In this document: positions 31,463 to 47,380 of the stretch, in pieces | Numbering within the stretch: the first letter of the stretch is position 1 | Layout of the letters: every line of letters starts with the position of its first letter | NCBI GenBank assembly: GCA_943357895.1 | Contig: CALRGO010000002.1 | Span: 25,926 to 89,925, forward strand | From: Parcubacteria group bacterium | GTDB lineage: Bacteria; Patescibacteriota; Minisyncoccia; UBA6257; UBA11618 | Length of the DNA stretch: 64,000 nt | Direction: 5' to 3' | Made by a program: the position numbers and the translations under genes | Notes under the pieces: generated by a model | What the model saw: only the letters and a program-made list of their open reading frames with translations | Databases searched by the model: none | What the model was told of the DNA's origin: nothing

Positions 31463-31477
31463 GTCTGTATCATCGTA

Positions 31478-32149
31478 ATGAAAGGGATTGCTGTTGTCAT
31501 TCCCGCATATAATGAGAGTGCTCGCGTAGTAGCGGTTGCTTTGGGAGCCGCACGGCATGCGGAGTTCGTTATTGTGGTGGACGATGGGTCGCGCGACGGT
31601 ACATGGAAGGCGCTCGCGGATCTTCCTCGGCCCGTCTATGTTCTCCGGCACCGTGTGAATATGGGTAAGGGGGCAGCGCTTATGACGGGGTGTGCGGCGG
31701 CACTTCGCCTCGGGGCGGAAATTCTAGTCACAATGGACGCAGATGGTCAGCACCCCCCGGAATATATTCCCCGAATCATACGCCATATGCGCGAAAAAAA
31801 TCTTGATTTCGTTTTTACGGAGCGCATGGCGGGAAACCAAATGCCCTTCGTGCGGCGCGCGGGTAATTATGTGATCAATAAGACGGCGCTTCATTTATTT
31901 GGTTTGCGTACGAATGACGTATGGTGCGGATTCCGCGCAGTGCGCGCATCATGCTTACCGCGCGTCATGTGGCGCGCACGTGATTATTCGGGCGAAGTGC
32001 AGATGGCTCTCGCGGTGGGTCGTAGCGGCATGTCATACGGTTCGTATCCTATTCCCACTATTTATGATGCGGGCGCTGCTAAAGGTGTGCATATTTTACA
32101 CGGGCTTAAATTACTTGCGCAGATGGCGGTTTGGCGTTTTTTTAGTTAA
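31478..32149 (+). CDS. glycosyltransferase family 2 (polyprenol-phosphate sugar transferase-like)
   Basis: VVIPAYNE, DDGSRDGT and DADGQH motifs of GT-A fold GT2; 223 aa. Confidence 0.75.
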   Translation: MKGIAVVIPAYNESARVVAVALGAARHAEFVIVVDDGSRDGTWKALADLPRPVYVLRHRVNMGKGAALMTGCAAALRLGAEILVTMDADGQHPPEYIPRIIRHMREKNLDFVFTERMAGNQMPFVRRAGNYVINKTALHLFGLRTNDVWCGFRAVRASCLPRVMWRARDYSGEVQMALAVGRSGMSYGSYPIPTIYDAGAAKGVHILHGLKLLAQMAVWRFFS

Positions 32150-33061: not shown

Positions 33062-33394
33062 ATGGTCGGTATTCAGCTTATATGTATTATCATCGGTCTT
33101 GCGGCAATTCATCTTACGCATTTGTATTATAAGCGTTTTTATTTTTCAAAAAGGGAGTTATTTTTTTGGGTGGGGCTTTGGTGTATTTTTATAGTAGTTG
33201 GGCTTTTTCCGCAGAGTGTTTTGCCGGTGAGTGGTTATTTAGGGCTAACCCGCCCTATGGATTTTATAATGATTCTGGCTTTTGTAGTCCTTTTTTCCCT
33301 TGCTTTTCATAATTATGTTCTTGGTCGTAAGCAGGAGCGCGATTTCGAGCGTTTGGTTCGCGAAATTGCCTTGCGAGATGCGAATTTGAAATAG
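33062..33394 (+). CDS. small membrane protein, DUF2304-like
   Basis: 110 aa, 3-4 TM helices with charged C-terminal tail; this kind of small membrane protein commonly accompanies GT2 genes. Confidence 0.5.
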   Translation: MVGIQLICIIIGLAAIHLTHLYYKRFYFSKRELFFWVGLWCIFIVVGLFPQSVLPVSGYLGLTRPMDFIMILAFVVLFSLAFHNYVLGRKQERDFERLVREIALRDANLK

Positions 33395-34555: not shown

Positions 34556-35768
34556 TGTCCTTATTTTTTCCGTTGATTATTTCCCGTACGTCGGAGGCGC
34601 GGAGATTGCGGTGCGTGAGACGTGTAAGCGTATCCCTGACTGCGCATTTACTCTTATAACGTGCCGGAATAGCCGTATTCTTCCGCGACATGAAATTATT
34701 GATGGTGTTTCGGTTTTTCGTGTCGGCATTGGCTTCCGACATATCGATAAATACATCATGCCTTTTACTGCTTTCGTTACCGCGATTCAGTTAAACCGCA
34801 AGCGCCGCTTTTCTATGGCATGGGCAATCATGGCTAATACGGGGGCTATCGCGGCGTTCGTATTCACAAGGCTGTATCCGAATGTTCGTTATCTTTTGAC
34901 TTTGCAAGAAGGCGATTCCGATTCGTATTATCGGAATCGTACGTGGTTTTGGGCTCCTTTGTATCGCGCACTTCATGCGCGCGCTGATCATATGCATGTT
35001 ATTAGTAATCATCTTGCCGCGCGTGCCCGTCGATTCGGCTATCGTGGGTCCGTTTCGGTTATTCCTAACGGCATTGATCCGGCGTTATTCAATATAGACC
35101 CCCTTTCACCCGAATTGATCGCGTGTATAAGAAAGGATATGGGTATTTTACAAGGTGAACAGATTATCATTACCACTTCCCGCTTAGAAGAAAAAAATGG
35201 CATTGATATTTTTTTACGTGCGATTGCTATCGTTACGCGCGATATTACATTACCAATCAAGGCTGTTGTTGCTGGATCGGGTAGCGAAGAAAAACGCCTT
35301 AAGCAGATTGCTGTGGATCTCGGTGTCGCCGATTCGGTTATTTTTTTAGGTTATAGCGTTCATGAAAAGATGCTACGCCTGCTGAAAGCGTCGTCCGTTT
35401 TTGTGCGACCTTCCCGCTCGGAGGGATTGGGTAATAGTTTTCTTGAGGCGATGGCATGCGGCATACCGATTATAGGAACGCCCGTCGGCGGTATACCCGA
35501 TTTTCTTATTGATGGGAAAACGGGCCTTTTTTCTAACCCGGAAGATCCGGCATCTCTTGCCGATGCCATACGACGGATACTTTCTGATGGTCAGCTGCGG
35601 AACGTTTTGGTTACAGGCGGAATTGCCGCGGTGGAAAAAACCTATTTATGGGATTCTATTGCATCAAAAATTTCATCTATGCTCAATCAGACGCTGAAAT
35701 GCCGCGCGCATGACGTTGTATATACCGAGAGCGAAAAAAATAAGCATAAGCAGAACAAAGGGAAGTAA
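34548..35768 (+). CDS. glycosyltransferase family 4
   Basis: Start at Met overlapping previous stop by 8 nt; EGLGNSFLEAMACGIPIIGTPVGG motif. Confidence 0.8.
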   Translation: MRNVLIFSVDYFPYVGGAEIAVRETCKRIPDCAFTLITCRNSRILPRHEIIDGVSVFRVGIGFRHIDKYIMPFTAFVTAIQLNRKRRFSMAWAIMANTGAIAAFVFTRLYPNVRYLLTLQEGDSDSYYRNRTWFWAPLYRALHARADHMHVISNHLAARARRFGYRGSVSVIPNGIDPALFNIDPLSPELIACIRKDMGILQGEQIIITTSRLEEKNGIDIFLRAIAIVTRDITLPIKAVVAGSGSEEKRLKQIAVDLGVADSVIFLGYSVHEKMLRLLKASSVFVRPSRSEGLGNSFLEAMACGIPIIGTPVGGIPDFLIDGKTGLFSNPEDPASLADAIRRILSDGQLRNVLVTGGIAAVEKTYLWDSIASKISSMLNQTLKCRAHDVVYTESEKNKHKQNKGK

Positions 35769-37790
35769 AGGAACTAGATAGCGAGTAAATCCAACGCTCA
35801 CTATAGTCAACGTTGCTGCCTGCGTCAGTACCAGGCCGCCCGTAAGGATATAGTCTTTGCGTTTGACTGCCGGCGCTATGCTACGGGGCATCATAAGATA
35901 CAGGACGGATGCGAAAAGAAATGCAATAAAAGGTATGGATATTGCGATCTCTACGGGATTAATGCCGAAGAACACCTCCGCTTTACTTATAAGGAGACGT
36001 CCATATGCCCGCGGCTCCTCCTGCATCCATTGGAAGGTGCGGGTTGCGCGGCCGTCGACGAACCGATACGCTATTTTTTCGACGAGGGGTGGGAGAGGCT
36101 GCTGTGGCACGAATGCCTCCGGAACGGGCGTGCCTATCATCAGGCTTGATGTGCCGCTTGATCGCAGAAAGAGCTCTGCTTTTCCTCCTACGGCAATATT
36201 TCTTATTACGAAAGGAGCGAGCATTAAGCTATAGCTAATCATAAAAATAACGGCAGGTAAAAGACTTTTTCGTTTTAGGCTTACGGCCATCCAGAGCAGA
36301 ATAACGGGTACGAAAAATTCCATATTGCTTCGCATGAGGACGAGTAATCCCGTAAGTACTCCCCCTACCCCGAAGAGGGCATATTTTTTTGAATTTACTG
36401 GTTGTTTTTCCGCCGAAAAAAGAGCGAGTACTGTTATTGCGGCTAATAATGCGCCTGCAGGATATAATTGTGTCGAATAATTCCGCATAAGCGGGTGAAA
36501 AAATACTCCTATGCCCGCCATGTAGAGAAACGGATTACGTGTCCCAGTTATTATTTGACCGATTTTTATTGTTATGAGTGCTGTTCCTATAAGCGCAATA
36601 CTTTGAATGAAAAATATGGGGAAAAGAGCCTCTCCTAAAATAAGGTGTGCGATGGCGAGAAGGTAGTAGTATAATATTTGCCAATAGTAAGAATCTTTTT
36701 CATATGTGGTCATCGCCCAGTCGCCTGTTGCGGCGATATGGCGTGCAAATGTTTCGTAGAGAACGGGATCATTCCCTGTTGGGAGTAGATTAAAATACCG
36801 CGACTCTGCCATAGCGAGGAGATTATATGTTGAAAAAGCAAGTCCTGCTAAAAATAAGACTGAAAATATAAAACGATCCGATCGTATCCATTCTCGCCAT
36901 GCTGCGCCGCGGGTTTTCATTATTAAATATGCTATTAAAAGCAGGAAAATAAGCATGATTCCACTTTCGTTTACTATCCCCCATATTCGATCTTCAGCAA
37001 GCCTTTTTTCAGTCGCGGGATGAGTATAGAAAAATCTTTCCGTAATTGCCGTTTCTTCACCCTCTGTCCACGCGAGGTAAATAAATCGGTTTGTTTTTGC
37101 CCCCGCATCGTAGCGTATCTCAAGTGGAATGGTGCCGCTTGAGCGTGAGGGAAGATGGATGGCGGCGGGGAGATTGCCTATGGGGGTGATAACCCTGTCT
37201 AGTATGACGGTAATTTTTGCGTCTTGATTAGCAGAGACTGTTATAGAGTCGTAAGTTGGAGGAACGCGTAGATTTGTTTTCCAAAGAGCTATAAACGGAA
37301 TAGCGGTCTTATCAATTTCTTTTCCGTTGCCGTTAAAGCGATCCTTTTCGTTCAGAAACCATAAAGGAAAAGGATCGGCGTGGAGTGAGTAGCCGGCGTT
37401 ATTAAAATTGATTTCTTGGTCAATCTTCGTAGTCAGGAACGCTGTCGGCGCGCCGTATTCCGTTGTCTCGGGGGCCTGATATTCGCTTATTACGCCATGG
37501 GCGGGTGAGAATAGTGTTGCGGCTATTTTTATGCCGATACAGAGCGTTATAGCGCACGCGAGTAGTGCGTATCGTTTGCCCCCATCTATTTTTGTGGTGG
37601 AAGAATTTTCTGGTAGGGCTACGAATAAGACAATAAATGCCGCGATAAGTAAGAGTTCATGAAGCGAGCCTAAGGGAATTCCGTTCACCCACGACCCAAC
37701 GCCGGGAATCGCGATGAACGTTAAAAACAGAAGCTCGCAAAAACGTTTGAGAATGAATGGGTTTTTGTTTATGCTGGATGGTGATGTCAT
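35673..37790 (-). CDS. large membrane glycosyltransferase-like protein (GT-C fold, ArnT/PMT_2-like) with N-terminal extracytoplasmic domain
   Basis: Signal-anchor, ~230 aa soluble beta-rich domain, then ~11 TM helices; 705 aa; 3' end overlaps convergent GT4 gene by 96 nt. Confidence 0.55.
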   Translation of the reverse strand: MTSPSSINKNPFILKRFCELLFLTFIAIPGVGSWVNGIPLGSLHELLLIAAFIVLFVALPENSSTTKIDGGKRYALLACAITLCIGIKIAATLFSPAHGVISEYQAPETTEYGAPTAFLTTKIDQEINFNNAGYSLHADPFPLWFLNEKDRFNGNGKEIDKTAIPFIALWKTNLRVPPTYDSITVSANQDAKITVILDRVITPIGNLPAAIHLPSRSSGTIPLEIRYDAGAKTNRFIYLAWTEGEETAITERFFYTHPATEKRLAEDRIWGIVNESGIMLIFLLLIAYLIMKTRGAAWREWIRSDRFIFSVLFLAGLAFSTYNLLAMAESRYFNLLPTGNDPVLYETFARHIAATGDWAMTTYEKDSYYWQILYYYLLAIAHLILGEALFPIFFIQSIALIGTALITIKIGQIITGTRNPFLYMAGIGVFFHPLMRNYSTQLYPAGALLAAITVLALFSAEKQPVNSKKYALFGVGGVLTGLLVLMRSNMEFFVPVILLWMAVSLKRKSLLPAVIFMISYSLMLAPFVIRNIAVGGKAELFLRSSGTSSLMIGTPVPEAFVPQQPLPPLVEKIAYRFVDGRATRTFQWMQEEPRAYGRLLISKAEVFFGINPVEIAISIPFIAFLFASVLYLMMPRSIAPAVKRKDYILTGGLVLTQAATLTIVSVGFTRYLVPLLPFVLLMLIFFALGIYNVMRAAFQRLIEHR

Positions 37791-38644
37791 ATTTCGTTCT
37801 TACGAGGCCGGGTCAGTGGATTAAGAATATTCTCGTTTTTGCCCCCATTTTTTTTATAGGAAGGGCGGGAAATTATGAAGATATGCGCGCCGTCTTTTTT
37901 ACGTTTCTTGTATTTACCCTTTTTTCCGTTGCTGCTTATATCATTAATGATATCATCGATCGCGATGATGACGCACTCCATCCAGTAAAACGTTTTCGCC
38001 CGATAGCGAGCGGGGTTATATCCCCTGCTCGTGCGGCAGTTTTTGCTGCTGTTATTTTTTCTTGCGCTGTATGGATAATGATGCGTTTTATTCCTTCTAT
38101 CATGCATAGCATGGTAGCCTATGCCTTTTTAACAGCGTTTTACACCTTTTATTTAAAGCGAATTCCCCTTGTCGATATAGTTACGGTTACATCGTTTTAT
38201 TTGCTTCGTGTTGCGGCAGGAGGGTCTGCGATACATATCATTCCTTCACGTTGGCTTGTCGCATGCGTCATGTTTCTTGCCCTTTTTATCGTATTAGGTA
38301 AGCGTCGTGCGGAATGTGCGCATTCCGCCTCAGCTATTCGTCCCGCACTTACTTTATATGCATCTGAACCGTACGGTATGCGAGAGATGCTTGATCATCT
38401 TCTCCCCGTTGCCGCCGCAGCAACTATTTCATCGTACGGAGCATATACAATCCTTGCCGTTCATTCTGATCTCGCTGTATATTCGCTCTTTTTCGTTATA
38501 TTTGGCATATTCCGATATTTTTTTCTGATTTACCGTTCGGCATTCGCTGAATCTGCCGAAATAGCGCTTACTAAGGATATGCCATTGCTTTTTTCCGTTT
38601 GCGGTTGGGGTATTTTTATGTATATTGTCGTATATCATTTATGA
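37757..38644 (+). CDS. UbiA-family prenyl-phosphate transferase, decaprenyl-phosphate phosphoribosyltransferase (DPPR synthase)-like
   Basis: RPGQWIKNILVFAP N-terminal motif, NDIIDRDDDALHPVKRFRPIASG Asp-rich motif and YLLRVAAGG...GKRRAE region resemble mycobacterial Rv3806c-type enzymes; 8-9 TM helices; true start probably Met 37778 or 37784. Confidence 0.65.
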   Translation: MGFCLCWMVMSYFVLTRPGQWIKNILVFAPIFFIGRAGNYEDMRAVFFTFLVFTLFSVAAYIINDIIDRDDDALHPVKRFRPIASGVISPARAAVFAAVIFSCAVWIMMRFIPSIMHSMVAYAFLTAFYTFYLKRIPLVDIVTVTSFYLLRVAAGGSAIHIIPSRWLVACVMFLALFIVLGKRRAECAHSASAIRPALTLYASEPYGMREMLDHLLPVAAAATISSYGAYTILAVHSDLAVYSLFFVIFGIFRYFFLIYRSAFAESAEIALTKDMPLLFSVCGWGIFMYIVVYHL

Positions 38645-39351
38645 ATCATTTTGATTATATCGACGACTACGATGAGGAGATTCCCTTGCATTTGCGAGAT
38701 TATTTTATGGAGCGAAAAATAGGTTATATTCGCGCCCGTATCCTTGAAAACTACGGGAATGCATCATGTTCATTGCTCGATGCCGGTTGCGGTACTGGCT
38801 GGCACGTCGCCGCTCTTATCGACGCTGGTTATGATGTGACAGGAATCGACGCATCTGAGCGACAAATAGCCCATGCGCGGCTGACGCATCCGCAGTGTAA
38901 ATTTATTTGCAGTAGCATGCTCTCACTTCCTTTTCCCGACGGCTCCTTTGATGTTGTTTACGCGATAAATTCTTTACATCATCTTGATTCTCCTGCGGCG
39001 CAGAAAACCGCGTTAGGGGAATTACGTCGCGTAACGAAAACCGGGGGGATTATAATCGTGCATGAGATGAATACCCGTAATCCCCTTATTCGGTGGTATC
39101 TTAGATTTCTTTTCCCCCGCTTAAAATCAATTGATGCCGGAAATGAACAATGGATCCTTCCTTCGTATTGGGAGAAGCATTATCCAGAGGTCTGTGGACC
39201 CGTTTCTTATTTCACTTTTACGCCCGATTTCACTCCACGCTTACTTTTGCCTTTTTTTAGGATGGTAGACCGTTTCTTAGAGTCGACTTTATTGCGCTTT
39301 TGGTCTGCGCATTACGCTGTTACTTTGCGTTTTGAAAAAAATACTCTATGA
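38641..39351 (+). CDS. class I SAM-dependent methyltransferase (type 11)
   Basis: ATGA start/stop overlap with upstream gene; motif I LLDAGCGTGWH, motif post-I DVTGIDAS. Confidence 0.75.
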   Translation: MNHFDYIDDYDEEIPLHLRDYFMERKIGYIRARILENYGNASCSLLDAGCGTGWHVAALIDAGYDVTGIDASERQIAHARLTHPQCKFICSSMLSLPFPDGSFDVVYAINSLHHLDSPAAQKTALGELRRVTKTGGIIIVHEMNTRNPLIRWYLRFLFPRLKSIDAGNEQWILPSYWEKHYPEVCGPVSYFTFTPDFTPRLLLPFFRMVDRFLESTLLRFWSAHYAVTLRFEKNTL

Positions 39352-40379
39352 AATATCTTGTTACTGGTGGCTCGGGTTTTCTCGGTATTAATCTTATCAG
39401 GCATCTTCTTGGGGAGGGCGCCGAAGTTCGCTCTTTTGATATCGCGGATTTTACGTATCCTGAGGCGGCATACGTGGATGCCGTTTTAGGCGACGTGCGG
39501 GATAGCGCGTCCGTTGCCCGCGCCATGCGCGGTGTTGATGCGGTAATACATTGCGCCGCGGCGCTTCCTTTGTATTCCGATTACGACATCGTATCTACTG
39601 ACGTCTCAGGAACGGAAAATATTCTTGCCGCGGCGGCGTCGGCGGGTGTCTCGCGTGTTGTGTATATATCCTCTACCGCCGTTTACGGAATTTTAAGCGC
39701 TTGCCTAGCGGATGAAGATACGCCGCTCGTCGGCGTTGGTCCGTACGGTAAAGCAAAGATTGACGCCGAGGCATTGTGCCTTTCGTACCGCAGGCGTGGC
39801 ATGTGCGTCCCTATCCTCCGTCCTAAATCATTCGTCGGTCCCGAGCGACTTGGTATATTCTCCTTGTTATACGAATGGGCGTTTTCAGGAAGGAATTTCC
39901 CCATCATCGGCAGTGGGCACAACCGGTACCAGCTTCTTGATGTCGCCGATTTATGCTCTTTTATTTCAACAGTATTGCATGCTGACGCCCGTATAGCAAA
40001 CGACACATTTAATGTCGGCGCGCGGGAATTTTCAACCGTACGTGAGGAATATCAAGCGGTGCTCGATCGCGCGGGGCACGGCAAGCGCGTTATTTCGTTT
40101 CCTGCCGGCCCCGCCATAGCTGCTTTGCGTATGCTTCACGCATGCCGTCTTTCGCCGGTCTATCCATGGGTTTACGAGACTGCAGGTAAGGATTCGTACG
40201 TTTCCATTGCGAAAGCCGAGCGGGAGCTGGGATATTCGCCGCTATATTCCAATATGGACGCACTATTGCGCAATTACGAGTGGTATATTGCTAACCGTCC
40301 GGCCTCCGGCGCGCGGGGTATATCCCACCGAACATCATGGAGGGGGGGCATGCTTGATTTTCTTAAATTATTTTTTTGA
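39348..40379 (+). CDS. NAD-dependent epimerase/dehydratase (extended SDR)
   Basis: VTGGSGFLG Rossmann motif, catalytic YGKAK (YxxxK); G7 homopolymer near 3' end (40343-40349). Confidence 0.8.
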   Translation: MKYLVTGGSGFLGINLIRHLLGEGAEVRSFDIADFTYPEAAYVDAVLGDVRDSASVARAMRGVDAVIHCAAALPLYSDYDIVSTDVSGTENILAAAASAGVSRVVYISSTAVYGILSACLADEDTPLVGVGPYGKAKIDAEALCLSYRRRGMCVPILRPKSFVGPERLGIFSLLYEWAFSGRNFPIIGSGHNRYQLLDVADLCSFISTVLHADARIANDTFNVGAREFSTVREEYQAVLDRAGHGKRVISFPAGPAIAALRMLHACRLSPVYPWVYETAGKDSYVSIAKAERELGYSPLYSNMDALLRNYEWYIANRPASGARGISHRTSWRGGMLDFLKLFF

Positions 40380-40831
40380 TGGCTAGTCCGCTTCATTATT
40401 TTTTCGAACTTGATCTTACGGCTTTCTCTCAAGACGTTTTTATTGTTGATGTTGAGGGTACAATTGCCCTACACGGGGCACATGCGGCGGATCCGGCTTC
40501 AGCTCGCAATATGGACGCCGTGCGTAAAGAAAAAAATATATTTCTTTGTTCGAATGCGCTTGATCAGTTGCGTATCGAGCGCATAGCCGCCGCTATCAAT
40601 GTCGGCTGCATCGCCTTATGGGGGGGGAAGCCGTGGGGGCGATTACCGGCCAGATTTCCGCGTAGTTCCGCTATAGTAGTTTTTGGCGATAAGTTCTTAA
40701 CCGACGGGTTATTCGCTTGGCGTATTGGTGCCCGTTTTATAAGAGTTCGCCGTCTTGTTTGCGGGAAGGAATCATTTCTAGAAAAGATATTTTTAAAAAT
40801 AGATGATTATCTCGCCTTATTTTTAAAATGA
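40376..40831 (+). CDS. HAD-superfamily phosphatase-like protein
   Basis: Motif I-like FIVDVEGT and motif IV-like VVFGDKFLTDG; 151 aa; contains in-frame G8 tract (40620-40627). Confidence 0.4.
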   Translation: MMASPLHYFFELDLTAFSQDVFIVDVEGTIALHGAHAADPASARNMDAVRKEKNIFLCSNALDQLRIERIAAAINVGCIALWGGKPWGRLPARFPRSSAIVVFGDKFLTDGLFAWRIGARFIRVRRLVCGKESFLEKIFLKIDDYLALFLK

Positions 40832-41928
40832 AAATTCTCATAGCAACGGGTATTTTTCCTCCTGATATTGGCGGGCCGGCGACCTATGTTCCTTTCGTTG
40901 CAGATGAGTTCGTCCGGCGCGGGCATTCGGTGCGGGTTGTGACGTACGGATCACGCCGCGCCGGCGGCTTATCGTATCCGGTTACGGGTGTTCCCCGCTT
41001 TCCGTTGCCGTTGCGGTATTTTTTGTTTTTTTTCGCGTGTGTCCGATACGGAGTTTTTGCTGATTGCATTTTTGCGCAGGACGCCTCGTCTTCGGGTGTA
41101 CCCGCGGCTTGCGCCTCCTTCATTTTACGGAAACGACTTATTGTGAAAATAGTGGGCGATTTTTCTTGGGAGTATGCTCGTAATGCGGAATTAGTGATGG
41201 ATGAAATTGATAATTTTCAAAAGAGATCTACGTATCCTTTTATCGTGCGGATGATCCGTTTTTGCCAAAAGGCCGTATGTCGCCGCGCCGCTTGCATAAC
41301 CGTACCAAGTCGTTATTTGAAGGGCATTGTTATGGGTTGGGGTGTTAATACGGAAAAAATAACCGTAATACCTAATGCGGTTATCGTTACCGCGCATCCG
41401 GTTTTGGCGGAGCGAGACCGCTTCATGGTTTTTACTGCGGGGCGTTTTGTCCCATGGAAGGGTTTTGATGGATTAATTCGCGCTTTCGCAAAAGCGCGAG
41501 ATGCGGCTCCGTCTGCGCGCCTCATGATTGCAGGAGACGGCCCGTGTCGGGAGAGTCTTGTTATGGTGGCTTCCGATGCAGGGGTTCTCGATGTAGTTTT
41601 ATTTTTAGGGCGCATATCCCCTTCGGAGATGGCTACGTGGTATTCCCGCGCCGGATGCTTCGCTCTTTTTTCTTCGTACGAAGGCCTTTCGCACGTCATT
41701 CTTGAGGCGTTGTCGTACGGGCTGCCTGTTATAGCGAGCGACGCAGGAGGAAATGCGGAGGCGGTTACTGACGGCATAAACGGCATAGTGGTTAAAAGCG
41801 GCGACGAAGAAGCTCTCGCGATGGCGTTGGTGAATTTTTTTAAGAATCCTATGTTTATTAAGAAGAATATAAGTTATTCGACCGCGGCGATGATCGATGA
41901 TATTTTAGGGGTATTACAGGGTTCATGA
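40828..41928 (+). CDS. glycosyltransferase family 4
   Basis: MKILIATGIFPPDIGGPATY N-terminus; EGLSHVILEALSYGLPVIASDAGG. Confidence 0.8.
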   Translation: MKILIATGIFPPDIGGPATYVPFVADEFVRRGHSVRVVTYGSRRAGGLSYPVTGVPRFPLPLRYFLFFFACVRYGVFADCIFAQDASSSGVPAACASFILRKRLIVKIVGDFSWEYARNAELVMDEIDNFQKRSTYPFIVRMIRFCQKAVCRRAACITVPSRYLKGIVMGWGVNTEKITVIPNAVIVTAHPVLAERDRFMVFTAGRFVPWKGFDGLIRAFAKARDAAPSARLMIAGDGPCRESLVMVASDAGVLDVVLFLGRISPSEMATWYSRAGCFALFSSYEGLSHVILEALSYGLPVIASDAGGNAEAVTDGINGIVVKSGDEEALAMALVNFFKNPMFIKKNISYSTAAMIDDILGVLQGS

Positions 41929-43076
41929 AATTACTCATGTTTTCGCTCGACCGTATGATTTTAGAGGACGGCTCCGCCTCGCAGAAAAAAATAATCGAAT
42001 ATGTAGCGTTTGCCGAAGAAATCCATGTTATTCTTTTCTCTTTTCGTGGTGAATCATCCCACCTGATCCATCCGCGGGTTTTTATATATCCTACAAGTCA
42101 TTATTTCCGTTTTAATCCATGGTATTTTTTCCGCGCTTTTGCAATGGCACGTACTATTATCCGTGTGCGGAATTTTAGTCCTGAAAAGGACGTTATGACG
42201 GCGCAAGATGTATTCCCGACGGGGGTCGCGGCGTATGCCGTACGGAAGCTATTTGGTATACCTCTTCAGCTGCAGGTGCATATCGATTTTTTTAAGGCTC
42301 GTTTTAGGACTGAGTCACTCATGAACCGTTTATATTTTCTATGTGCGCGTTTTCTTTTACCACGTGCGGATGCGGTCCGTGTTGTTTCAGCTGAAATCAG
42401 GGAATATCTTGTTGATGTAATGGCAATTAAGCCTAAAAAAATAGCCCTACTTCCTGTATTTTGCGATATCCGTTTCATTGTAGATGCCGCACCCCGTTTT
42501 GATTTGCATAAAAAATATCCTGATCATTCTTTTTTGATAGTCGCTATCGCCCGTTTTGTTCCCCAGAAGAACCTCGAGCTTTGTATTCGCTCGATGGACT
42601 TAATCTTTGCGTCTCATAGGAATATAGGGCTTGTTCTTGTAGGAAGTGGGCCGGAGGAGCATCGATTGCGTTCTCTCTCGGCTGCGGGCAGTGCTCATAA
42701 AAATATATTCTTCGAGTCATGGACGGACACGGCTGTTTCGTACAATAAAGGTGCGGATGTTTTTCTATTTCCCTCATGGTATGAGGGTTGGGGGCTTGCC
42801 GTTATTGAGGCTATGGCATGCGGCGTGCCGGTTGTAGCGACTCCCGTCGGCTGCGTTCCCCTGCTGATTGAAAACGGAAAGAGCGGTTATATTATAGAAC
42901 ATGATGATGCGGCAGCGGTCGCGCAGCATATACGTTTTCTTTACGAAAATTGCGCTTCGCGTTTAGCTATGGGGGCCTTTGCTCGGGAGGCAGTTCTTAC
43001 CCGTTTGTCATATGATAAAACCGCATATTTTAAGGAGTATGCTCAGGCGCTCGCTATAGCATTTCATGGAGCATAA
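41925..43076 (+). CDS. glycosyltransferase family 4
   Basis: EGWGLAVIEAMACGVPVVATPVGC motif. Confidence 0.8.
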   Translation: MKLLMFSLDRMILEDGSASQKKIIEYVAFAEEIHVILFSFRGESSHLIHPRVFIYPTSHYFRFNPWYFFRAFAMARTIIRVRNFSPEKDVMTAQDVFPTGVAAYAVRKLFGIPLQLQVHIDFFKARFRTESLMNRLYFLCARFLLPRADAVRVVSAEIREYLVDVMAIKPKKIALLPVFCDIRFIVDAAPRFDLHKKYPDHSFLIVAIARFVPQKNLELCIRSMDLIFASHRNIGLVLVGSGPEEHRLRSLSAAGSAHKNIFFESWTDTAVSYNKGADVFLFPSWYEGWGLAVIEAMACGVPVVATPVGCVPLLIENGKSGYIIEHDDAAAVAQHIRFLYENCASRLAMGAFAREAVLTRLSYDKTAYFKEYAQALAIAFHGA

Positions 43077-44127
43077 AAAAAAGATTCTGCTTTTCAATCT
43101 TGCCGTCGATGAGGACGACCCTATTTTGGCGTTCTCAGTTACGCTTATCGCGCGCCTTGCGCGCGAAGCGGAGTTAGTACATGTGATAACAGTTCGCGCA
43201 GGACGTTTTCGACTACCTTCGAACGTTACCGTGTGCTCCGTCGGGCGCGAGTCTGATAGAGGCAGGATTGCCAGTATCTTTTCTTTTTATGGGCATCTTT
43301 TACATGCTATAAAAAAGGAGCGCTTCGATATATGCTTCGCCCATATGAATCCTTTATTCGTCGCGCTTGCAGGCCCCGTCTGTTTTATTCAGCGCATCCG
43401 GATTGTGTTATGGTACGCACATCGCCATCAGGGAATTATCGCACGGATCGCTCACTTTTTTTCATGGCGCGTACTTACGACTAATCGGGGAGGCTACTCT
43501 TTATTTTCAGATAAGGTGGTAGCTACGGGGCATATGATCGATACAGATTTTTTTAAGCCCGTTATAGGGCTCAAAAAATCAGCCTCGCCGCTTTTTGTTT
43601 CCGTCGGCAGGGTTGCTCCTATTAAGGATTTGATGACGTTCATTCGCGCAGCGGGTATTTTGCGCGATAACGGACATCAGTTTCGATGCGTTTGCGTCGG
43701 CCCTGTATTGCCGCATGATGAGGTGTATTATTCGGCTCTGCAGGCTGAGGTCGCCCGACTTTCTCTTTCGGAATATTTTTCTTTTGCTGGATCCGTTATG
43801 CGTGAGAATCTACCTTTCGAATATGGGCGCGCCACTGCCCACGTAAATTTATGCCCGTATGGAGCGCTCGATAAAGCCGTCCTTGAGGCTATGGCATGCG
43901 GCGTGCCGAGCTTTTTCGCGAATGACGAATTCGTTTCGGTCGCCGGCCGTTTTTCGAGCGGGCTGTTTTTTAAATACGGCGATCCGCGCGATCTCGCCCG
44001 CCTTCTTGAGAAATTTCTCCTTTCGCTGGCTCAAGATAATTTAGTTCGGAATGAATTGCGTGCTATGGTCGTGCGACGACATAGTCTTAATTCTTTTGCG
44101 CATACATTCATGGAATTAATTACATGA
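43066..44127 (+). CDS. glycosyltransferase family 4-like
   Basis: LEAMACGVPSFFANDE GT-B C-terminal motif. Confidence 0.65.
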   Translation: MEHKKKILLFNLAVDEDDPILAFSVTLIARLAREAELVHVITVRAGRFRLPSNVTVCSVGRESDRGRIASIFSFYGHLLHAIKKERFDICFAHMNPLFVALAGPVCFIQRIRIVLWYAHRHQGIIARIAHFFSWRVLTTNRGGYSLFSDKVVATGHMIDTDFFKPVIGLKKSASPLFVSVGRVAPIKDLMTFIRAAGILRDNGHQFRCVCVGPVLPHDEVYYSALQAEVARLSLSEYFSFAGSVMRENLPFEYGRATAHVNLCPYGALDKAVLEAMACGVPSFFANDEFVSVAGRFSSGLFFKYGDPRDLARLLEKFLLSLAQDNLVRNELRAMVVRRHSLNSFAHTFMELIT

Positions 44128-44774
44128 GAACGATAGTGGGTGAATTAGTTCGCGGCAAAGGATTATGGCGCGCCTTGTTGTACGAGGCAATCTTTTCTTC
44201 AGCGGTTGCTTTACGTGCGCCGATTATAGACATCGCCTCCGGAGGCAATCCCGGTTATTGGCGTATTTTAGGTTTAAAAAAAGCTGATATAACGACGATT
44301 GACGTTAATGCGTCCACCCACCCTTCTTTAGTCTATGATTTTTCTTCGTTTCGATTATCCTATCCCGATGCGTCTTTCGAGTCGGCATTTCTTATGAACT
44401 GCGTTTACATATTCTCCGACCCGCTTTCCGTTATGCGAGAAGTGCGCCGTATATTACGGTTGGGCGGTGTGGCACTTATGAGCTTTCCTCTTGTATTTCC
44501 TTATACTCCAGAGCCGCGCGATTTATACCGGTTTACCGAAGAGGGTGTTCGGTATCTATGTGCGGAATCAGGACTTGTTATTGTAGCTCTCATGCCACTT
44601 GGCGGAAGATGGGCATCTGCCGCATATCTTATAAGTCCTTTTTTGCGTCCGTATTTTATTTTCGCATTCCCCGTATATTTTATGACCGTTTTTCTTGATA
44701 TGGTATCCGCTTTTTTCCTTCCTCGTCTATCTTCCGCACCAATCGGTTATTTCGCCATCGTTAAAAAAATATGA
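44124..44774 (+). CDS. SAM-dependent methyltransferase-like protein
   Basis: IDIASGGNPGYW motif I-like, LRLGGVALMSFP; hydrophobic C-terminus. Confidence 0.5.
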   Translation: MRTIVGELVRGKGLWRALLYEAIFSSAVALRAPIIDIASGGNPGYWRILGLKKADITTIDVNASTHPSLVYDFSSFRLSYPDASFESAFLMNCVYIFSDPLSVMREVRRILRLGGVALMSFPLVFPYTPEPRDLYRFTEEGVRYLCAESGLVIVALMPLGGRWASAAYLISPFLRPYFIFAFPVYFMTVFLDMVSAFFLPRLSSAPIGYFAIVKKI

Positions 44775-45532
44775 TTGGATATTGGGCACGAGAATTACTT
44801 TACGGTGTCCTTCGGGTAACGTTATCGTTCAAGCGCGATACCAGTCTCTACGTGCTCATGTATCATTCTGTGGGCGGCGACGGACCCCTTTCGGTTTCTG
44901 TTGCAGAGTTTAATTGGCAGATGCGCTTTATATCCCTTAATTACGACGTTATTTCGCTTTCTAGCGCTCTTTCTGTATCTCGTCTCCCGCGCGTCCGTCC
45001 TGCTATATGTGTGACTTTTGACGACGGGCTCGCTGATCTATACGCAAATGCACTTCCTATTTTAGAGAGGTGGAGAATTCCAGCGACTTTTTTTATTACG
45101 ACGGGATATATCGGCGGCTTACACCCCGTTTTTTACGGGCATGAGCGATGTATGTCTGCCACAGAAATAAAAGATCTGCATTTTCGCGGCTACGAAATTG
45201 GCGCACATACCGTCAGTCATCCCAAGCTCGCCCGTATTGACGCGCATGCTGCGTACGGGGAGATTGCTGGTTCTAAGGCGGTGCTTGAATTGATAACTGG
45301 CGCTCGTGTCCGTTCTTTCGCTTATCCTAAAGGTAGCTATACTGAAGCAGTGGAAAAATTAGTTGAGTCCGCCGGTTTCGAGGTGGCGTGTGCGGTGCGT
45401 GAGGCTGCGTGCGATTCTCAAGGTGATCGTTTCGCCTTGCCGCGCATAGCCGTCGACGCCTCGATAGGACGAATGCAGTTTAAGGGGAAGATTTCTCCTG
45501 CTATATCTGTTTATGAATATATTAAAAAATAA
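44771..45532 (+). CDS. polysaccharide deacetylase (NodB/CE4 family)
   Basis: TFDDG motif (ICVTFDDGLAD), HxxxxH-type (GAHTVSHP). Confidence 0.8.
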   Translation: MIGYWARELLYGVLRVTLSFKRDTSLYVLMYHSVGGDGPLSVSVAEFNWQMRFISLNYDVISLSSALSVSRLPRVRPAICVTFDDGLADLYANALPILERWRIPATFFITTGYIGGLHPVFYGHERCMSATEIKDLHFRGYEIGAHTVSHPKLARIDAHAAYGEIAGSKAVLELITGARVRSFAYPKGSYTEAVEKLVESAGFEVACAVREAACDSQGDRFALPRIAVDASIGRMQFKGKISPAISVYEYIKK

Positions 45533-46181
45533 TATGCCAATAACTAGCGGAATTTTAGCGTTCGAGAACTCGCATTGGTCGCGCGGCGATCAGGAATTGG
45601 TTTTGCGACATACGCTTGCACTTCCTTTTATTTCCGCCGGACCCGTTCTTGATATTGGGGGTGGCGACGGCCTTTTTAGCTCTCTTATAAAAAAGAAAAC
45701 CGGATTTGATATCCGTCTTGTCGATATATCCCCCATTGCCGTTCAGAAGGCGCGAGAAAAAGGTCTTGACGCTGAAGTTCTCGACATATCCGCCGACTTG
45801 CCATTTCATGATAAGAGTTTTGGTACTGTTTGCGCTCTTGATGTATTAGAGCATGTTTATGATCCACTTTTTCTTTTGTGTGAAATGAAGAGGGTGGGTG
45901 GGTCGGTGGTTATATCCGTACCTAATTTCCATTTTATTTTAGGGAGAATAAGTATGGCTTTTGGCTATATACCTTTTCAATCGAAACCGCGCCGCGGGCA
46001 TATTTATTGGTTTAATTATCCTATTTTATTAAAAATAATTCGTGATGCCGGCATGCATATCGAATCTATTTCCTACGGACCGATTATGCGCTTAGGTGTG
46101 CTTGGCCGCGCACTCGCCAGCTTATGGCCAAACGTTTTTGCTGATAGCTTTGTAGTTTTATTAAAAGAAACTGGTGCATGA
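45513..46181 (+). CDS. class I SAM-dependent methyltransferase
   Basis: VLDIGGGDGLFS motif I, CALDVLEHVYDP. Confidence 0.75.
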   Translation: MNILKNNMPITSGILAFENSHWSRGDQELVLRHTLALPFISAGPVLDIGGGDGLFSSLIKKKTGFDIRLVDISPIAVQKAREKGLDAEVLDISADLPFHDKSFGTVCALDVLEHVYDPLFLLCEMKRVGGSVVISVPNFHFILGRISMAFGYIPFQSKPRRGHIYWFNYPILLKIIRDAGMHIESISYGPIMRLGVLGRALASLWPNVFADSFVVLLKETGA

Positions 46182-47380
46182 GCAGTATATTGTCGATTGC
46201 ATATATCGCAAATATCCGCCTACCAACGGAAAAAGCACACGGTTACCAGATAATGAAAATGTGCGAAGCTTTGGCGGACGAAGGCGCTCATATTGTTCTT
46301 ACTTGTCCCATCCGTCGTCAAACGAACAGCGTGATACAAGAAGCGGCGGACCCCTTCGATTATTATGGGATTCGGCGCATTTTTACGGTCAGATATATCG
46401 CCAATTTCGATATTTTTAGGATAGAGCGGTATATTCCAGCAGGATTTTTTAAGTTCTTCTTTTATATACATTCGGTCGTATGGGGTGCGTATGCTCTTTA
46501 TATGGTTAGAAAAACCTCTGATGCTGTGTATTTGCATGACGATATCCCGCTAGGGATGCTTGCGACGTTTTTTAAAATTCCCCTTATATACGAAGTTCAT
46601 GGGATTCCAGCGGGCGTAGGTAGGTTGACCGTGCGATTTGCGTGCGGCTCCTCCACTTTATTAGTCGGTGCCCTTACGGCTCATATACGTGACCGGCTCA
46701 TTGGTGAATTCGGCTACGATTTCGCAAAGACTGTCATCCTTCCCGATGGCGTTGATCTCGGCTTGTTCTCAGAAAGCCATCCGCGAAGCTATTTTAGAAA
46801 AAAAGCCGGTTTTCTGGCACGCGGGCCGCTCGTGGGGTACGTCGGTACATTTACATCTTTGGGTTATGAGAAGGGGGTTGGTTCTTTGATACGGGCAATG
46901 GCGCTCGTGCGTGAAAAATATCCTGATGCGACTCTTGTTTGCGTGGGCGGTCCGGATGAGCTTATCCCCCAATACGAGAGATTAGTAGCTCATAGTGGAA
47001 TTCCCAAACATGCCGTTTGTTTTACGGGTCATGTAAATTCTTCGGGTGCCGTTTTGCGAATGCGTGCGTGCGACGTTTTAGTTATTCCTTTGCCGTATAA
47101 TGAATTTTTTGCGTATCATACTTCCCCGCTCAAACTTTTTGAATATATGGCTTCGCGTGTCCCTATAGTTGCGTCAGACCTCCCTTCTTTGCGGGAAGTC
47201 ATTTCCGAGCGAACGACCGTTTTTGCGGAGCCAGGAAACGCTGCATCGCTTGCGGCGGGTATTTGCTGTGTGCTTGATGATCCCCGCGCGGCCGAAGAGC
47301 GTGCGGAGGTGGCATATACGGATGTTCTGTCTTATGCATGGCGGGAGCGAGCAAAGGTCGTTATGGGATACATATCATAA
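46178..47380 (+). CDS. glycosyltransferase family 4
   Basis: GT-B architecture, C-terminal nucleotide-sugar binding region. Confidence 0.75.
   Translation: MSSILSIAYIANIRLPTEKAHGYQIMKMCEALADEGAHIVLTCPIRRQTNSVIQEAADPFDYYGIRRIFTVRYIANFDIFRIERYIPAGFFKFFFYIHSVVWGAYALYMVRKTSDAVYLHDDIPLGMLATFFKIPLIYEVHGIPAGVGRLTVRFACGSSTLLVGALTAHIRDRLIGEFGYDFAKTVILPDGVDLGLFSESHPRSYFRKKAGFLARGPLVGYVGTFTSLGYEKGVGSLIRAMALVREKYPDATLVCVGGPDELIPQYERLVAHSGIPKHAVCFTGHVNSSGAVLRMRACDVLVIPLPYNEFFAYHTSPLKLFEYMASRVPIVASDLPSLREVISERTTVFAEPGNAASLAAGICCVLDDPRAAEERAEVAYTDVLSYAWRERAKVVMGYIS

What the first reader, a model, noticed from the sequence alone, without database searches (positions are those of the whole stretch)
37757..40831. 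DPPR-synthase-like UbiA transferase + SDR epimerase + HAD phosphatase: a lipid-linked pentofuranose donor pathway outside Actinobacteria
ORF 37757-38644 carries N-terminal RPGQWIKNILV and the extended Asp-rich block NDIIDRDDDALHPVKRFRPIASG. As I recall them, these match the decaprenyl-phosphate 5-phosphoribosyltransferase (Rv3806c) family rather than quinone or heme prenyltransferases. It is co-linear with a type-11 MTase, an extended-SDR NAD epimerase (YxxxK) and a small HAD-like phosphatase. In mycobacteria the arabinofuranose donor DPA is made by UbiA (DPPRS), a phosphatase, then DprE1/DprE2 (FAD oxidase plus SDR reductase), and is consumed by GT-C arabinosyltransferases. Homologs are otherwise known in Azorhizobium Nod-factor arabinosylation. 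Here there are a DPPRS-like enzyme, a phosphatase candidate and a single SDR. No VAO-type DprE1 is visible. Several GT-C-like membrane proteins flank the operon. This suggests a polyprenyl-phosphate-ribose (or single-enzyme epimerised pentose) donor feeding periplasmic glycosylation in a CPR-like cell.
Basis: partly seen in the sequence, partly recalled or inferred. Interest (0 to 1): 0.85.

Follow-up and report, generated by a model that had tools for sequence, protein, structure and literature searches.

The report
Lipid-linked pentofuranose glycosylation operon in CPR

Summary
ORF 37757-38644 is a DPPRS-type UbiA phosphoribosyltransferase: the only solved-structure match is Mtb Rv3806c (E 1.9e-30, 37% identity), and 12 of 13 functional residues are kept. 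It overlaps by 1-4 nt with a type-11 methyltransferase, an extended SDR and a 150-aa HAD protein.

This matches the three-component pentofuranose system of Kelly et al. (PNAS 2024, PMC11127046), which includes a single SDR epimerase (Ribf to Xylf). At least 598 species representatives in about 20 phyla carry the gene.

Local peculiarities:
- The methyltransferase and SDR form an accessory cassette, absent from relative L093.
- HAD motif I reads DxE instead of DxD.
- No SMR or MATE flippase lies in the operon.

The final pentose is undetermined.

The parts
37757..38644 (+). Polyprenyl-phosphate 5-phosphoribosyltransferase (PPPRS; DPPRS-type UbiA-superfamily enzyme), 295 aa. An alternative start at residue 10 gives 286 aa.
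   Evidence: PF01040 3e-20. Best NCBIfam hits are the DPPRS equivalogs NF008978 (163 bits) and NF008977 (156 bits), both below their cut-offs of 207 and 234. Heme o synthase scores only 54 bits. The only PDB hits are Mtb Rv3806c 8j8j/8j8k (E 1.9e-30), at 37% identity over 248 aa. Residues R22, K28, Y70, N73, D74, D77, D81, K87, R90, Y138, K143 and Y157 of Rv3806c are all conserved. Q135 is Thr here.
38641..39351 (+). SAM-dependent methyltransferase (type 11), 236 aa; target unknown. Part of an accessory cassette together with the SDR.
   Evidence: PF08241 2.8e-24. All NCBIfam hits are far below cut-off. ATGA overlaps on both sides. Among the fetched loci it is present only in the window's contigs and L006; it is absent from L007, L009, L024 and L093.
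39348..40379 (+). Extended SDR, NAD-type, 343 aa. Candidate epimerase or oxidoreductase acting on polyprenyl-phosphate ribofuranose.
   Evidence: PF01370 3.5e-36 and PF01073 1.4e-23. It carries TGGSGFLG, SSTAVYG and PYGKAK. Orthologs 58-60% identical lie directly beside PPPRS in L007, L009 (Peregrinibacteria) and L024 (Kaiserbacteria). Homologs 35-51% identical lie beside DPPRS-type UbiA genes in Natronococcus, Streptomyces, Rhizobium CCGE531 and NGR234.
40376..40831 (+). HAD-superfamily phosphoribose 5-phosphatase (PRP), split from the PPPRS; 150-151 aa.
   Evidence: BLASTP to the N-terminal HAD domain of fused HAD-UbiA relatives: 36% identity, E 4e-18 (P0062), and 29%, E 5e-13 (P0016). A profile built from fused domains only gives E 2.4e-25 and a unique hit in the window. 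Motifs II (CSN), III (KP) and IV (GDKxxTD) are kept. Motif I is DVEGT instead of DxDGT.
35673..37790 (-). GT-C fold glycosyltransferase (PMT_2/ArnT-like) with an extracytoplasmic PA14 carbohydrate-binding insert. The long form is 705 aa; gene callers give 671 aa from 37688. Predicted user of the lipid-linked pentofuranose.
40828..47380 (+). Downstream genes of the same operon: four GT4 glycosyltransferases, two methyltransferases and a polysaccharide deacetylase. Presumed builders and modifiers of the acceptor glycan.
   Evidence: Pfam annotations. Overlapping stop/start junctions.
33062..33394 (+). DUF2304 small three-TM protein next to a PpgS-like GT2 (31478-32149). It is the only small multi-TM protein in the island, and only a speculative flippase candidate.
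   Evidence: PF10066 1e-22. TM scan. No window homolog of the SMR transporters found inside the L007, L009 and L046 operons.

Best explanation
The locus is a split-gene version of the three-component system that decorates extracytoplasmic glycans with pentofuranoses.

Proposed steps:
1. The UbiA-family enzyme (37757-38644) transfers ribose-5-phosphate from PRPP to a polyprenyl phosphate on the cytoplasmic face. Inferred from residue-level conservation with Rv3806c.
2. The HAD protein (40376-40831) removes the 5-phosphate to give polyprenyl-P-ribofuranose. Inferred from homology to the fused, experimentally characterised kind of domain.
3. The extended SDR (39348-40379) transiently oxidises and re-reduces one ring carbon with bound NAD. 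This converts the ribofuranose into an epimer. Xylofuranose is expected by analogy with C. youngae ORF13; arabinofuranose is not excluded. Inferred from gene linkage only.
4. The methyltransferase (38641-39351) may methylate the pentose or the finished glycan. Speculative.
5. The donor is flipped by an unidentified transporter.
6. The PA14-bearing GT-C enzyme (35673-37790) transfers the pentofuranose to a glycan assembled by the GT4 enzymes of the same operon. The fold is shown; the donor and acceptor are inferred from adjacency.

The methyltransferase and SDR form an optional cassette. Relative L093 has UbiA directly followed by HAD and would be expected to add plain ribofuranose.
For: - DPPRS identity.
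- HAD as PRP: fused HAD-UbiA relatives at 37-43% identity, and direct homology.
- SDR linkage: orthologs adjacent to PPPRS in four CPR lineages. Homologs are adjacent or near in haloarchaea, Streptomyces and rhizobia. The only genes shared by those loci are the UbiA, a phosphatase (HAD, PHP or EEP) and large membrane or GT-C-like genes. One rhizobial record, CP032687.1, is cited by Kelly et al. as a candidate system.
- The SDR's best family hits are lipid-acting extended SDRs (HpnA, OleD, 3-beta-HSD).
- GT-C fold. Conserved divergent pairing with UbiA.
- Operon coupling.
- Cassette behaviour of the methyltransferase and SDR.
- Experimental precedent for every step except methylation: PMC11127046 and PMC10994848.
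Against: - The UbiA protein scores below the curated NCBIfam DPPRS cut-offs (163 against 207 bits).
- The ribose-O3 contact Q135 is Thr here.
- HAD motif I has Glu at the general acid/base position (DVEGT), so phosphatase activity may be altered.
- No SMR or MATE flippase homolog exists in the window, unlike L007, L009 and the rhizobial loci.
- The GT-C family is not detectably linked to PPPRS outside the window's own lineage.
- There are no biochemical data.
Confidence: 0.72

Rival explanations
1. The SDR and methyltransferase are ordinary nucleotide-sugar enzymes, for example a UDP- or dTDP-hexose epimerase/reductase and an O-methyltransferase. They would supply the GT4 enzymes of the operon. 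The lipid-linked donor would then be plain ribofuranose made by UbiA and HAD alone.
For: The closest solved structures are dTDP-glucose 4,6-dehydratases and nucleotide-sugar epimerases (E 1e-26 to 1e-20). PF16363 and PF01370 match. The operon is full of Leloir GT4 genes that need nucleotide sugars. L093 works without the SDR.
Against: The SDR subfamily sits next to DPPRS-type genes in CPR, haloarchaea, Streptomyces and rhizobia, in loci whose other genes differ. All nucleotide-sugar equivalogs score far below cut-off, for example galE 58 bits against 262. The sequence has SSTA where 4,6-dehydratases carry TDE (the TDE signature is from my own knowledge). The best family hits are lipid-acting SDRs.
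Confidence: 0.17
2. The SDR is the reductase half of a two-enzyme, DprE1/DprE2-like 2'-epimerase. The oxidase would be a non-VAO flavoprotein, such as the PRK07208-family protein at 60466-61923 or a gene outside the window. The product would be polyprenyl-P-arabinofuranose.
For: A PRK07208-family flavoprotein closes the island (NF005548, 430 bits against a cut-off of 389). Its homologs lie next to PPPRS genes in Gemmatimonadaceae L031 (290 bits) and Bryobacteraceae L022 (180 bits). Rhizobial loci with the window-type SDR also carry a GMC flavin oxidoreductase. Only 64 kb of the genome was examined.
Against: The flavoprotein is 20 kb away and on the other strand. L007, L009, L024, Natronococcus and Streptomyces pair the SDR with PPPRS and show no PRK07208-type homolog or adjacent flavoprotein. 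The SDR next to UbiA in L031 is only 28% identical to the window's SDR. The window's SDR is an extended SDR and gives no DprE2 hit.
Confidence: 0.1
3. The UbiA-family protein is an aromatic, heme or archaeal-lipid prenyltransferase and has no role in glycan synthesis.
For: It belongs to PF01040. JGI auto-annotation calls many homologs 4-hydroxybenzoate polyprenyltransferase.
Against: Heme o synthase, UbiA and DGGGPS models score 54 bits or less, against 156-163 bits for the DPPRS models. No aromatic prenyltransferase structure is matched at E 0.01. The phosphoribose and pyrophosphate ligands, which the structure paper says are not conserved in other UbiA enzymes, are all present.
Confidence: 0.01

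Closest known systems
Three-component pentofuranose side-chain glycosylation system of Citrobacter youngae O1/O2: ORF15 (PRP-PPPRS), ORF14 (transporter), ORF12 (GT-C, GT136), ORF13 (SDR epimerase). Kelly et al., PNAS 2024, PMC11127046.
   Same: It has a DPPRS-type UbiA enzyme, a HAD-family phosphoribose phosphatase, a single cytoplasmic SDR with TGxxGxxG and YxxxK instead of DprE1/E2, and a GT-C enzyme with a carbohydrate-binding module. The genes are embedded among GT4 genes of a glycan cluster. The epimerase is optional between close relatives (O1 against O2; L093 against the window).
   Different: The PRP is a separate gene downstream rather than an N-terminal fusion; the authors note one such case in a phage. 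Motif I reads DxE. A methyltransferase sits between the PPPRS and the SDR. There is no MATE or SMR transporter in the operon or the window. The GT-C is PMT_2-related with a PA14 insert after the N-terminal helices rather than a C-terminal Ig-like CBM. GT136 membership and ORF13 orthology were not tested. The host is a CPR bacterium, presumably monoderm, so the acceptor is not an LPS O antigen.
Mycobacterial decaprenyl-phosphoarabinose pathway: Rv3806c DPPRS, Rv3807c, DprE1/DprE2, and the Emb/Aft GT-C enzymes.
   Different: The phosphatase is HAD rather than the Rv3807c type. There is no VAO-type DprE1 and no classical-SDR DprE2 in the window. A single extended SDR takes their place. The product is therefore not necessarily arabinofuranose.
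Candidate systems on rhizobial symbiotic plasmids (Rhizobium sp. CCGE531 CP032687.1, S. fredii NGR234 pNGR234a), haloarchaeal megaplasmids (Natronococcus) and a Streptomyces plasmid.
   Same: They carry the same SDR subfamily (35-51% identity) next to DPPRS-type UbiA genes with the full PRPP-binding residue set. A phosphatase and large membrane or GT-C-like proteins are also present.
   Different: The phosphatase is non-orthologous: HAD-fused in rhizobia, PHP domain in Natronococcus, EEP family in Streptomyces. These loci carry an SMR or LPG-synthase-like transporter. The rhizobial loci add a second SDR and a GMC oxidoreductase. None has been characterised experimentally as far as the held literature shows.

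Membership tests
DPPRS/PPPRS (PRPP-dependent polyprenyl-phosphate phosphoribosyltransferases of the UbiA superfamily) | UbiA-superfamily membrane fold and profile | tested here: met
   PF01040 3e-20, covering residues 33-262.
DPPRS/PPPRS (PRPP-dependent polyprenyl-phosphate phosphoribosyltransferases of the UbiA superfamily) | Closer to characterised DPPRS than to any aromatic, heme or lipid prenyltransferase | tested here: met
   DPPRS models score 163, 156 and 123 bits. The next non-DPPRS family, heme o synthase, scores 54 bits. Rv3806c is the only PDB match at E<=0.01.
DPPRS/PPPRS (PRPP-dependent polyprenyl-phosphate phosphoribosyltransferases of the UbiA superfamily) | Score above the curated NCBIfam equivalog cut-off | tested here: not met
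   163 against 207 bits (NF008978), 156 against 234 (NF008977), 123 against 474 (NF008976). The models are tuned to closer relatives, so this lowers automatic naming rather than the functional inference.
DPPRS/PPPRS (PRPP-dependent polyprenyl-phosphate phosphoribosyltransferases of the UbiA superfamily) | Mg, ribose, 5'-phosphate and pyrophosphate ligands defined in the Rv3806c structures (R22, K28, Y70, N73, D77, K87, R90, Q135, Y138, K143, Y157) and the NDxxDxxxD motif | tested here: met
   12 of 13 positions are identical. Q135 is Thr126; that position varies in the family (N 56, Q 15, T 13 of 95).
DPPRS/PPPRS (PRPP-dependent polyprenyl-phosphate phosphoribosyltransferases of the UbiA superfamily) | PRPP-dependent transfer of ribose-5-phosphate to polyprenyl phosphate | not testable with these tools
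   Needs an enzyme assay.
Three-component pentofuranose glycosylation system (Kelly et al. 2024) | HAD-family phosphoribose phosphatase (PRP) with a catalytic Asp in loop I | tested here: met
   Homology to the fused PRP-type domains. The nucleophile Asp is present and motifs II-IV are kept. The D+2 residue is Glu in the window and in L006, and the effect of this is unknown.
Three-component pentofuranose glycosylation system (Kelly et al. 2024) | Small MATE- or SMR-type transporter encoded with the synthase (donor flippase) | tested here: not met
   The SMR proteins of L007, L009 and L046 have no homolog among the window's stop-to-stop ORFs of at least 40 aa, even at E 10 (814 ORFs). The only small multi-TM protein in the island is DUF2304 (33062-33394).
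Three-component pentofuranose glycosylation system (Kelly et al. 2024) | GT-C fold glycosyltransferase encoded next to the synthase | tested here: met
Three-component pentofuranose glycosylation system (Kelly et al. 2024) | The GT-C belongs to CAZy family GT136 (ORF12-like) | not tested
   No ORF12 sequence was available. Relatives of the window's protein hit PF13231 PMT_2. It shows no detectable similarity to the rhizobial 658-aa protein.
Three-component pentofuranose glycosylation system (Kelly et al. 2024) | Auxiliary SDR epimerase orthologous to ORF13 (Ribf to Xylf) | tested here: inconclusive
   The SDR motifs and conserved linkage to PPPRS are met. The ORF13 sequence is only an image in the supplement, so orthology and C3 specificity are unknown.
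Mycobacterial DPA pathway (DprE1/DprE2 type) | VAO-type FAD oxidase DprE1 (PF01565) | tested here: not met
   No such family appears on any called gene or ORF of the window. The rest of the genome was not examined.
Mycobacterial DPA pathway (DprE1/DprE2 type) | Classical (about 250 aa) SDR reductase DprE2 | tested here: not met
   The window's SDR is a 343-aa extended SDR. No DprE2 model appears among its NCBIfam hits at E<=0.01.
Nucleotide-sugar 4,6-dehydratases / GalE epimerases (rival home for the SDR) | Score above the curated cut-offs, and the TDE catalytic triad for dehydratases | tested here: not met
   dTDP-glucose dehydratase 82 bits against 365; galE 58 against 262. The sequence has SSTAVYG.

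The most novel reading that the evidence does not exclude
The window-type extended SDR may define a stand-alone, NAD-dependent epimerase family for polyprenyl-phosphate ribofuranose. It would be distinct from both DprE1/E2 and C. youngae ORF13, and it travels with DPPRS-type enzymes from haloarchaea to CPR bacteria. In this lineage it would work with the inserted methyltransferase to make a methylated, epimerised pentofuranose donor. That could be a single-enzyme route to arabinofuranose for a CPR cell-envelope glycan, with a PA14-bearing GT-C of a new family as the transferase.
Probability: 0.2. Interest if true: 0.6.

Novelty: new member of a known kind. Interest (0 to 1): 0.38.

Why it matters
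CPR/Patescibacteria have tiny genomes and largely unknown envelopes. Here about half of a 64-kb window is devoted to one glycan island, with a lipid-linked pentofuranose branch. This gives concrete, testable enzymes for asking what these cells display on their surface, which matters for their episymbiotic lifestyle.

More generally, this SDR subfamily co-occurs with DPPRS-type genes in Archaea, CPR, Actinobacteria and rhizobia, while the phosphatase is non-orthologously replaced (HAD, PHP, EEP). That gives a useful bioinformatic marker for pentofuranose-modifying systems, and a candidate for a one-enzyme alternative to the drug target DprE1/E2.

None of this overturns current understanding. 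It extends a pathway published in 2024.

Tried and rejected
1. The first related-loci run, with a 16-sequence alignment, failed because no conserved stretch was found. A 7-sequence alignment worked. It returned only relatives of 38% identity or less, so the window's own genus is not among the 80 loci returned.
2. Structure prediction of the 671-aa membrane protein from a 4-sequence alignment was useless (pLDDT 44). It worked only after the exhaustive profile search supplied 52 sequences.
3. Direct Pfam and NCBIfam scans of the large membrane proteins at relaxed thresholds gave nothing. Single-sequence hhalign of 30029-31462, 52564-54390 and 55091-56590 against the GT-C family gave probabilities of 0.4% or less. 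A family profile for 30029-31462 reached only 67%, so these proteins stay unassigned.
5. I looked for the ORF13 sequence in the paper's supplement, but it is only an image. The phage example BK026208.1 did not come up in the phage collection search.
6. The idea that the Saccharibacteria loci (L025) carry DprE1/E2 was rejected. Their neighbours are a regulator, GT4, GT2 and Wzy_C.
7. The GT-C family HMM finds no clear members beside PPPRS outside the window's lineage.
8. General clustering of neighbours across the 80 loci was dominated by antisense ORFs and was too heterogeneous to add to Kelly et al.'s survey.

Full report
OBSERVATION.
- 37757-38644 is a UbiA-superfamily protein (PF01040, 3e-20).
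- 38599/38641-39351 is a type-11 methyltransferase (PF08241, 2.8e-24).
- 39348-40379 is an extended SDR (PF01370, 3.5e-36).
- 40376-40831 has no Pfam hit and only a weak YqeG-type HAD hit (4.8e-8).

From the UbiA gene to the GT4 gene ending at 47380, the stop and start codons overlap or abut (-4, -4, -1, -4, -4, -11, -4, -4, +1, -4 nt). This is one translationally coupled operon of at least eleven genes.

The window itself is part of a 206-kb metagenomic contig (ENA ERZ27280257). Housekeeping genes (dcw cluster, ribosomal proteins, DnaE, GatB) flank a glycan island of about 33 kb. A member of the 90%-identity NusG cluster is labelled Candidatus Paceibacterota, so the 'CPR-like' guess is right.

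THE UbiA PROTEIN IS A DPPRS-TYPE PHOSPHORIBOSYLTRANSFERASE.
- Its best NCBIfam matches are three decaprenyl-phosphate phosphoribosyltransferase equivalogs (163, 156 and 123 bits) and the HAD-UbiA fusion model PRK08238 (148 bits). Heme o synthase, 4-hydroxybenzoate prenyltransferase and DGGGPS models reach at most 54 bits. All the DPPRS scores are below the curated cut-offs, so this is a divergent member.
- Against all PDB sequences, the only matches are the two M. tuberculosis Rv3806c entries (E 1.9e-30), at 37% identity over 248 residues.
- The Rv3806c structure paper defines the ligands for Mg (N73, D77), ribose (N73, Q135), the 5'-phosphate (K28, Y70, Y157) and the pyrophosphate (R22, K87, R90, K143, Y138). 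It states that the phosphoribose-binding residues are not conserved in other UbiA enzymes (PMC10994848).
- In an alignment of 95 family members, the window's protein keeps 12 of the 13 positions examined. Only Q135 differs (Thr126), and that position varies across the family (N 56, Q 15, T 13).
- The quinone or heme prenyltransferase alternative is effectively excluded.

THE FAMILY IS NOT RARE OUTSIDE ACTINOBACTERIA.
- The word-indexed search found more than 5,000 homologs at E<=1e-10. NCBI already names many of them DPPRS in Ignavibacteria, Flavobacterium, Calditrichaceae and Paceibacterota.
- A scan of one genome per species found at least 598 hits. The best 80 span roughly twenty phyla, including Peregrinibacteria, Kaiserbacteria and Saccharibacteria.

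THE HAD PROTEIN IS THE SPLIT PHOSPHORIBOSE PHOSPHATASE.
- Several homologs of about 425 aa carry an N-terminal HAD domain fused to the UbiA domain.
- The window's 151-aa ORF aligns to that domain with 36% identity (E 4e-18) and 29% identity (E 5e-13).
- A profile built only from the fused domains finds it, and nothing else among 814 window ORFs, at E 2.4e-25.
- HAD motifs II to IV are conserved. Motif I reads DVEGT in the window and in its close relative L006, where every other sequence has DxDGT. The nucleophile Asp is present, but the general acid/base is Glu. The consequence is unknown.

THE SDR IS GENOMICALLY TIED TO DPPRS-TYPE GENES.
- Orthologs 58-60% identical, more conserved than the UbiA protein itself, lie directly beside the PPPRS gene in three places: an unnamed metagenomic lineage (L007), a Peregrinibacteria genome (L009) and a Kaiserbacteria genome (L024, where HAD and UbiA are fused). 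L006 has a 77%-identical ortholog.
- tblastn against plasmids found 48-51% identical SDRs in haloarchaea, 45-47% in Streptomyces and Nonomuraea, and 35-37% in rhizobia.
- In Natronococcus the gene lies in a run of SDR, DolP-Man mannosyltransferase, LPG-synthase-type membrane protein, PHP-domain protein, UbiA and GT39.
- In Streptomyces sp. SAT1 the run is SDR, UbiA, GT2, EEP-family phosphatase, GT2, LPG-synthase domain and deacetylase.
- In Rhizobium sp. CCGE531 and S. fredii NGR234 the SDR sits with an SMR transporter, a GMC oxidoreductase, a 658-aa hypothetical membrane protein, a second SDR and a 480-aa UbiA protein.
- All three UbiA proteins tested (Rhizobium, Natronococcus, Streptomyces) carry the DPPRS ligand set. 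The SDRs score 352, 303 and 211 bits against the window's SDR.
- What these loci share is the UbiA enzyme, the SDR, a phosphatase of interchangeable family, and large membrane or GT-C-like proteins. That pattern argues that the SDR acts in the lipid-linked pentose pathway rather than on a nucleotide sugar.
- Its best family hits are lipid-acting extended SDRs (HpnA, OleD, 3-beta-HSD), all below cut-off. It has SSTAVYG where 4,6-dehydratases have TDE (the TDE signature is from my own knowledge).

THE DIVERGENT NEIGHBOUR IS A GT-C ENZYME.
- The protein at 35673-37790 has no profile hit and only four word-search homologs.
- An exhaustive profile search found 1,223 relatives. Of 52 aligned, 34 match PF13231 (PMT_2, the ArnT/PMT family) and 15 match PA14. 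The family profile matches PA14 structures at E 1e-21.
- With that alignment the AlphaFold model reached pLDDT 92.2 and pTM 0.92.
- N-termini of homologs support the 705-aa long form. Its start codon overlaps the 5' end of the UbiA gene on the other strand.
- The divergent pairing with UbiA is kept in L006 and in L093, where the GT-C is only 32% identical.

THE METHYLTRANSFERASE AND SDR ARE AN ACCESSORY CASSETTE. L093 is syntenic with the window over the GT2, DUF2304, GT4, GT-C, UbiA, HAD and further GT4 genes. But there the UbiA gene is followed directly by the HAD gene (with canonical DIDGT), with no methyltransferase or SDR. Among the fetched loci the methyltransferase occurs only in the window's own lineage.

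WHAT IS MISSING.
- No VAO-type DprE1 and no DprE2-like classical SDR occur in the window.
- No homolog of the SMR transporters found inside the L007 and L009 operons and the rhizobial loci exists in the window. The flippase is therefore unidentified.

COMPARISON WITH WHAT IS KNOWN. Kelly, Duong, Nothof, Lowary and Whitfield (PNAS 2024, PMC11127046) showed the following in Citrobacter youngae.
- A HAD phosphatase fused to a DPPRS-like enzyme makes undecaprenyl-P-ribofuranose from PRPP.
- A small transporter is proposed to flip the donor.
- A GT-C enzyme with a carbohydrate-binding module (founding GT136) adds the sugar to the O antigen.
- A single cytoplasmic SDR (ORF13) converts the donor so that xylofuranose is added instead.
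- Arabinofuranose systems use DprE1/E2 homologs.

The authors report candidate systems in Gram-negatives, Gram-positives and a phage (with a split phosphatase). They list Rhizobium sp. CCGE531 CP032687.1, the same record in which I found the window-type SDR. The window's operon is therefore a member of this known kind. I found no paper in the held library that discusses it in CPR bacteria.

MOST LIKELY MECHANISM.
1. PRPP and polyprenyl phosphate give polyprenyl-P-ribofuranose-5-P (UbiA enzyme).
2. Dephosphorylation (HAD).
3. NAD-dependent epimerisation at C3, or possibly C2 (SDR).
4. Possibly methylation (methyltransferase).
5. Flipping by an unknown transporter.
6. Transfer to a glycan built by the operon's GT4 enzymes, by the PA14-bearing GT-C.

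Steps 1 and 2 rest on residue-level and domain-fusion homology to characterised enzymes. Step 6 rests on a confident fold plus conserved adjacency. Step 3 rests on gene linkage and precedent. Step 4 is speculation. I put 0.72 on the overall scheme. I cannot say whether the product is xylofuranose, arabinofuranose or something else.

VERDICT. The novelty claim is not: this is a new member, in a poorly known lineage, of a system described in 2024 and already widely annotated.
- Interest is moderate (0.38).
- It provides concrete handles on CPR envelope glycobiology.
- It reveals an SDR subfamily that accompanies DPPRS-type genes across Bacteria and Archaea, with non-orthologous phosphatases.
- It has local oddities: the DxE motif, the inserted methyltransferase, the missing flippase and the PA14-bearing GT-C.

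Noticed in passing
window 30029-31651 (-), 31478-32149 (+), 33062-33394 (+): A second lipid-linked-sugar module. It has a PpgS-like GT2 (NF058614, 85 bits), a DUF2304 small membrane protein and an unannotated multi-TM protein of 477-540 aa. The layout recalls, from my own memory of that system, the mycobacterial PpgS/Rv3632/Rv3779 arrangement. It is syntenic in L006 and L093. The membrane protein's family has 21 homologs, none with Pfam hits. It is only weakly related to the GT-C family (hhalign probability 67%, E 5e-5).
   Followed up: partly
window 60466-61923 (-): A flavoprotein of the uncharacterised PRK07208 family (NF005548, 430 bits, above the cut-off of 389; amine-oxidase/UDP-galactopyranose-mutase-like) closes the glycan island. 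Homologs lie right beside PPPRS genes in Gemmatimonadaceae (L031, 290 bits) and Bryobacteraceae (L022, 180 bits). It could be a non-VAO oxidase partner for pentose epimerisation, or a furanose mutase.
   Followed up: partly
window 40376-40831; L006 9690-10181: HAD motif I reads DVEGT in the window and its close relative, with Glu at the general acid/base position. All fused and split relatives elsewhere, including L093, have DxDGT.
   Followed up: partly
window 37757-37790: The 5' ends of the divergent GT-C gene (long form, supported by homolog N-termini) and the UbiA gene overlap by up to 34 nt on opposite strands. This leaves no intergenic promoter region unless the shorter starts are used.
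   Followed up: partly
L090 (Natronococcus plasmid NZ_CP099392.1) and L091 (Streptomyces plasmid NZ_CP016082.1): The window-type SDR and a DPPRS-type UbiA gene co-occur with a PHP-domain protein (haloarchaea) or an EEP-family phosphatase (Streptomyces) instead of a HAD. This looks like non-orthologous displacement of the 5-phosphatase. It places the module in Archaea.
   Followed up: partly
L007 267-1406 (-); L009 8701-9822 (-): S-adenosylmethionine synthetase (metK) lies next to the PPPRS-SDR-HAD operon in two separate CPR lineages, while the window's lineage has a methyltransferase inside the operon. This may be coincidence or a SAM-related link.
   Followed up: no
window 28600-62000: The island encodes seven SAM-methyltransferase domains, at 32161, 38641, 44124, 45534, 48408, 51279 (-) and 57084 (-). 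The last sits in a 762-aa protein with about nine TM segments. The island also has seven GT4 genes, a deacetylase, an acyltransferase_3 and an F5/8-type-C protein. This suggests a heavily modified glycan.
   Followed up: no
window 52564-54390 (-), 55091-56590 (+), 50111-51301 (-): Three more polytopic membrane proteins (about 12, 12 and 6 TM-like segments) have no profile hit and no detectable relation to the GT-C family. They could be polymerases, ligases, flippases or further GT-Cs.
   Followed up: partly
window 37757-38644, residue 126: The ribose-O3 contact of Rv3806c (Q135) is Thr in the window and Ala or Val in its closest relatives. Most family members have Asn or Gln.
   Followed up: partly
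window 28621-29976 (-): A single-TM protein with a PG_binding_1 domain (3.8e-11) and weak peptidoglycan-hydrolase similarity sits between gatB and the island. It is not a GT-C.
   Followed up: no
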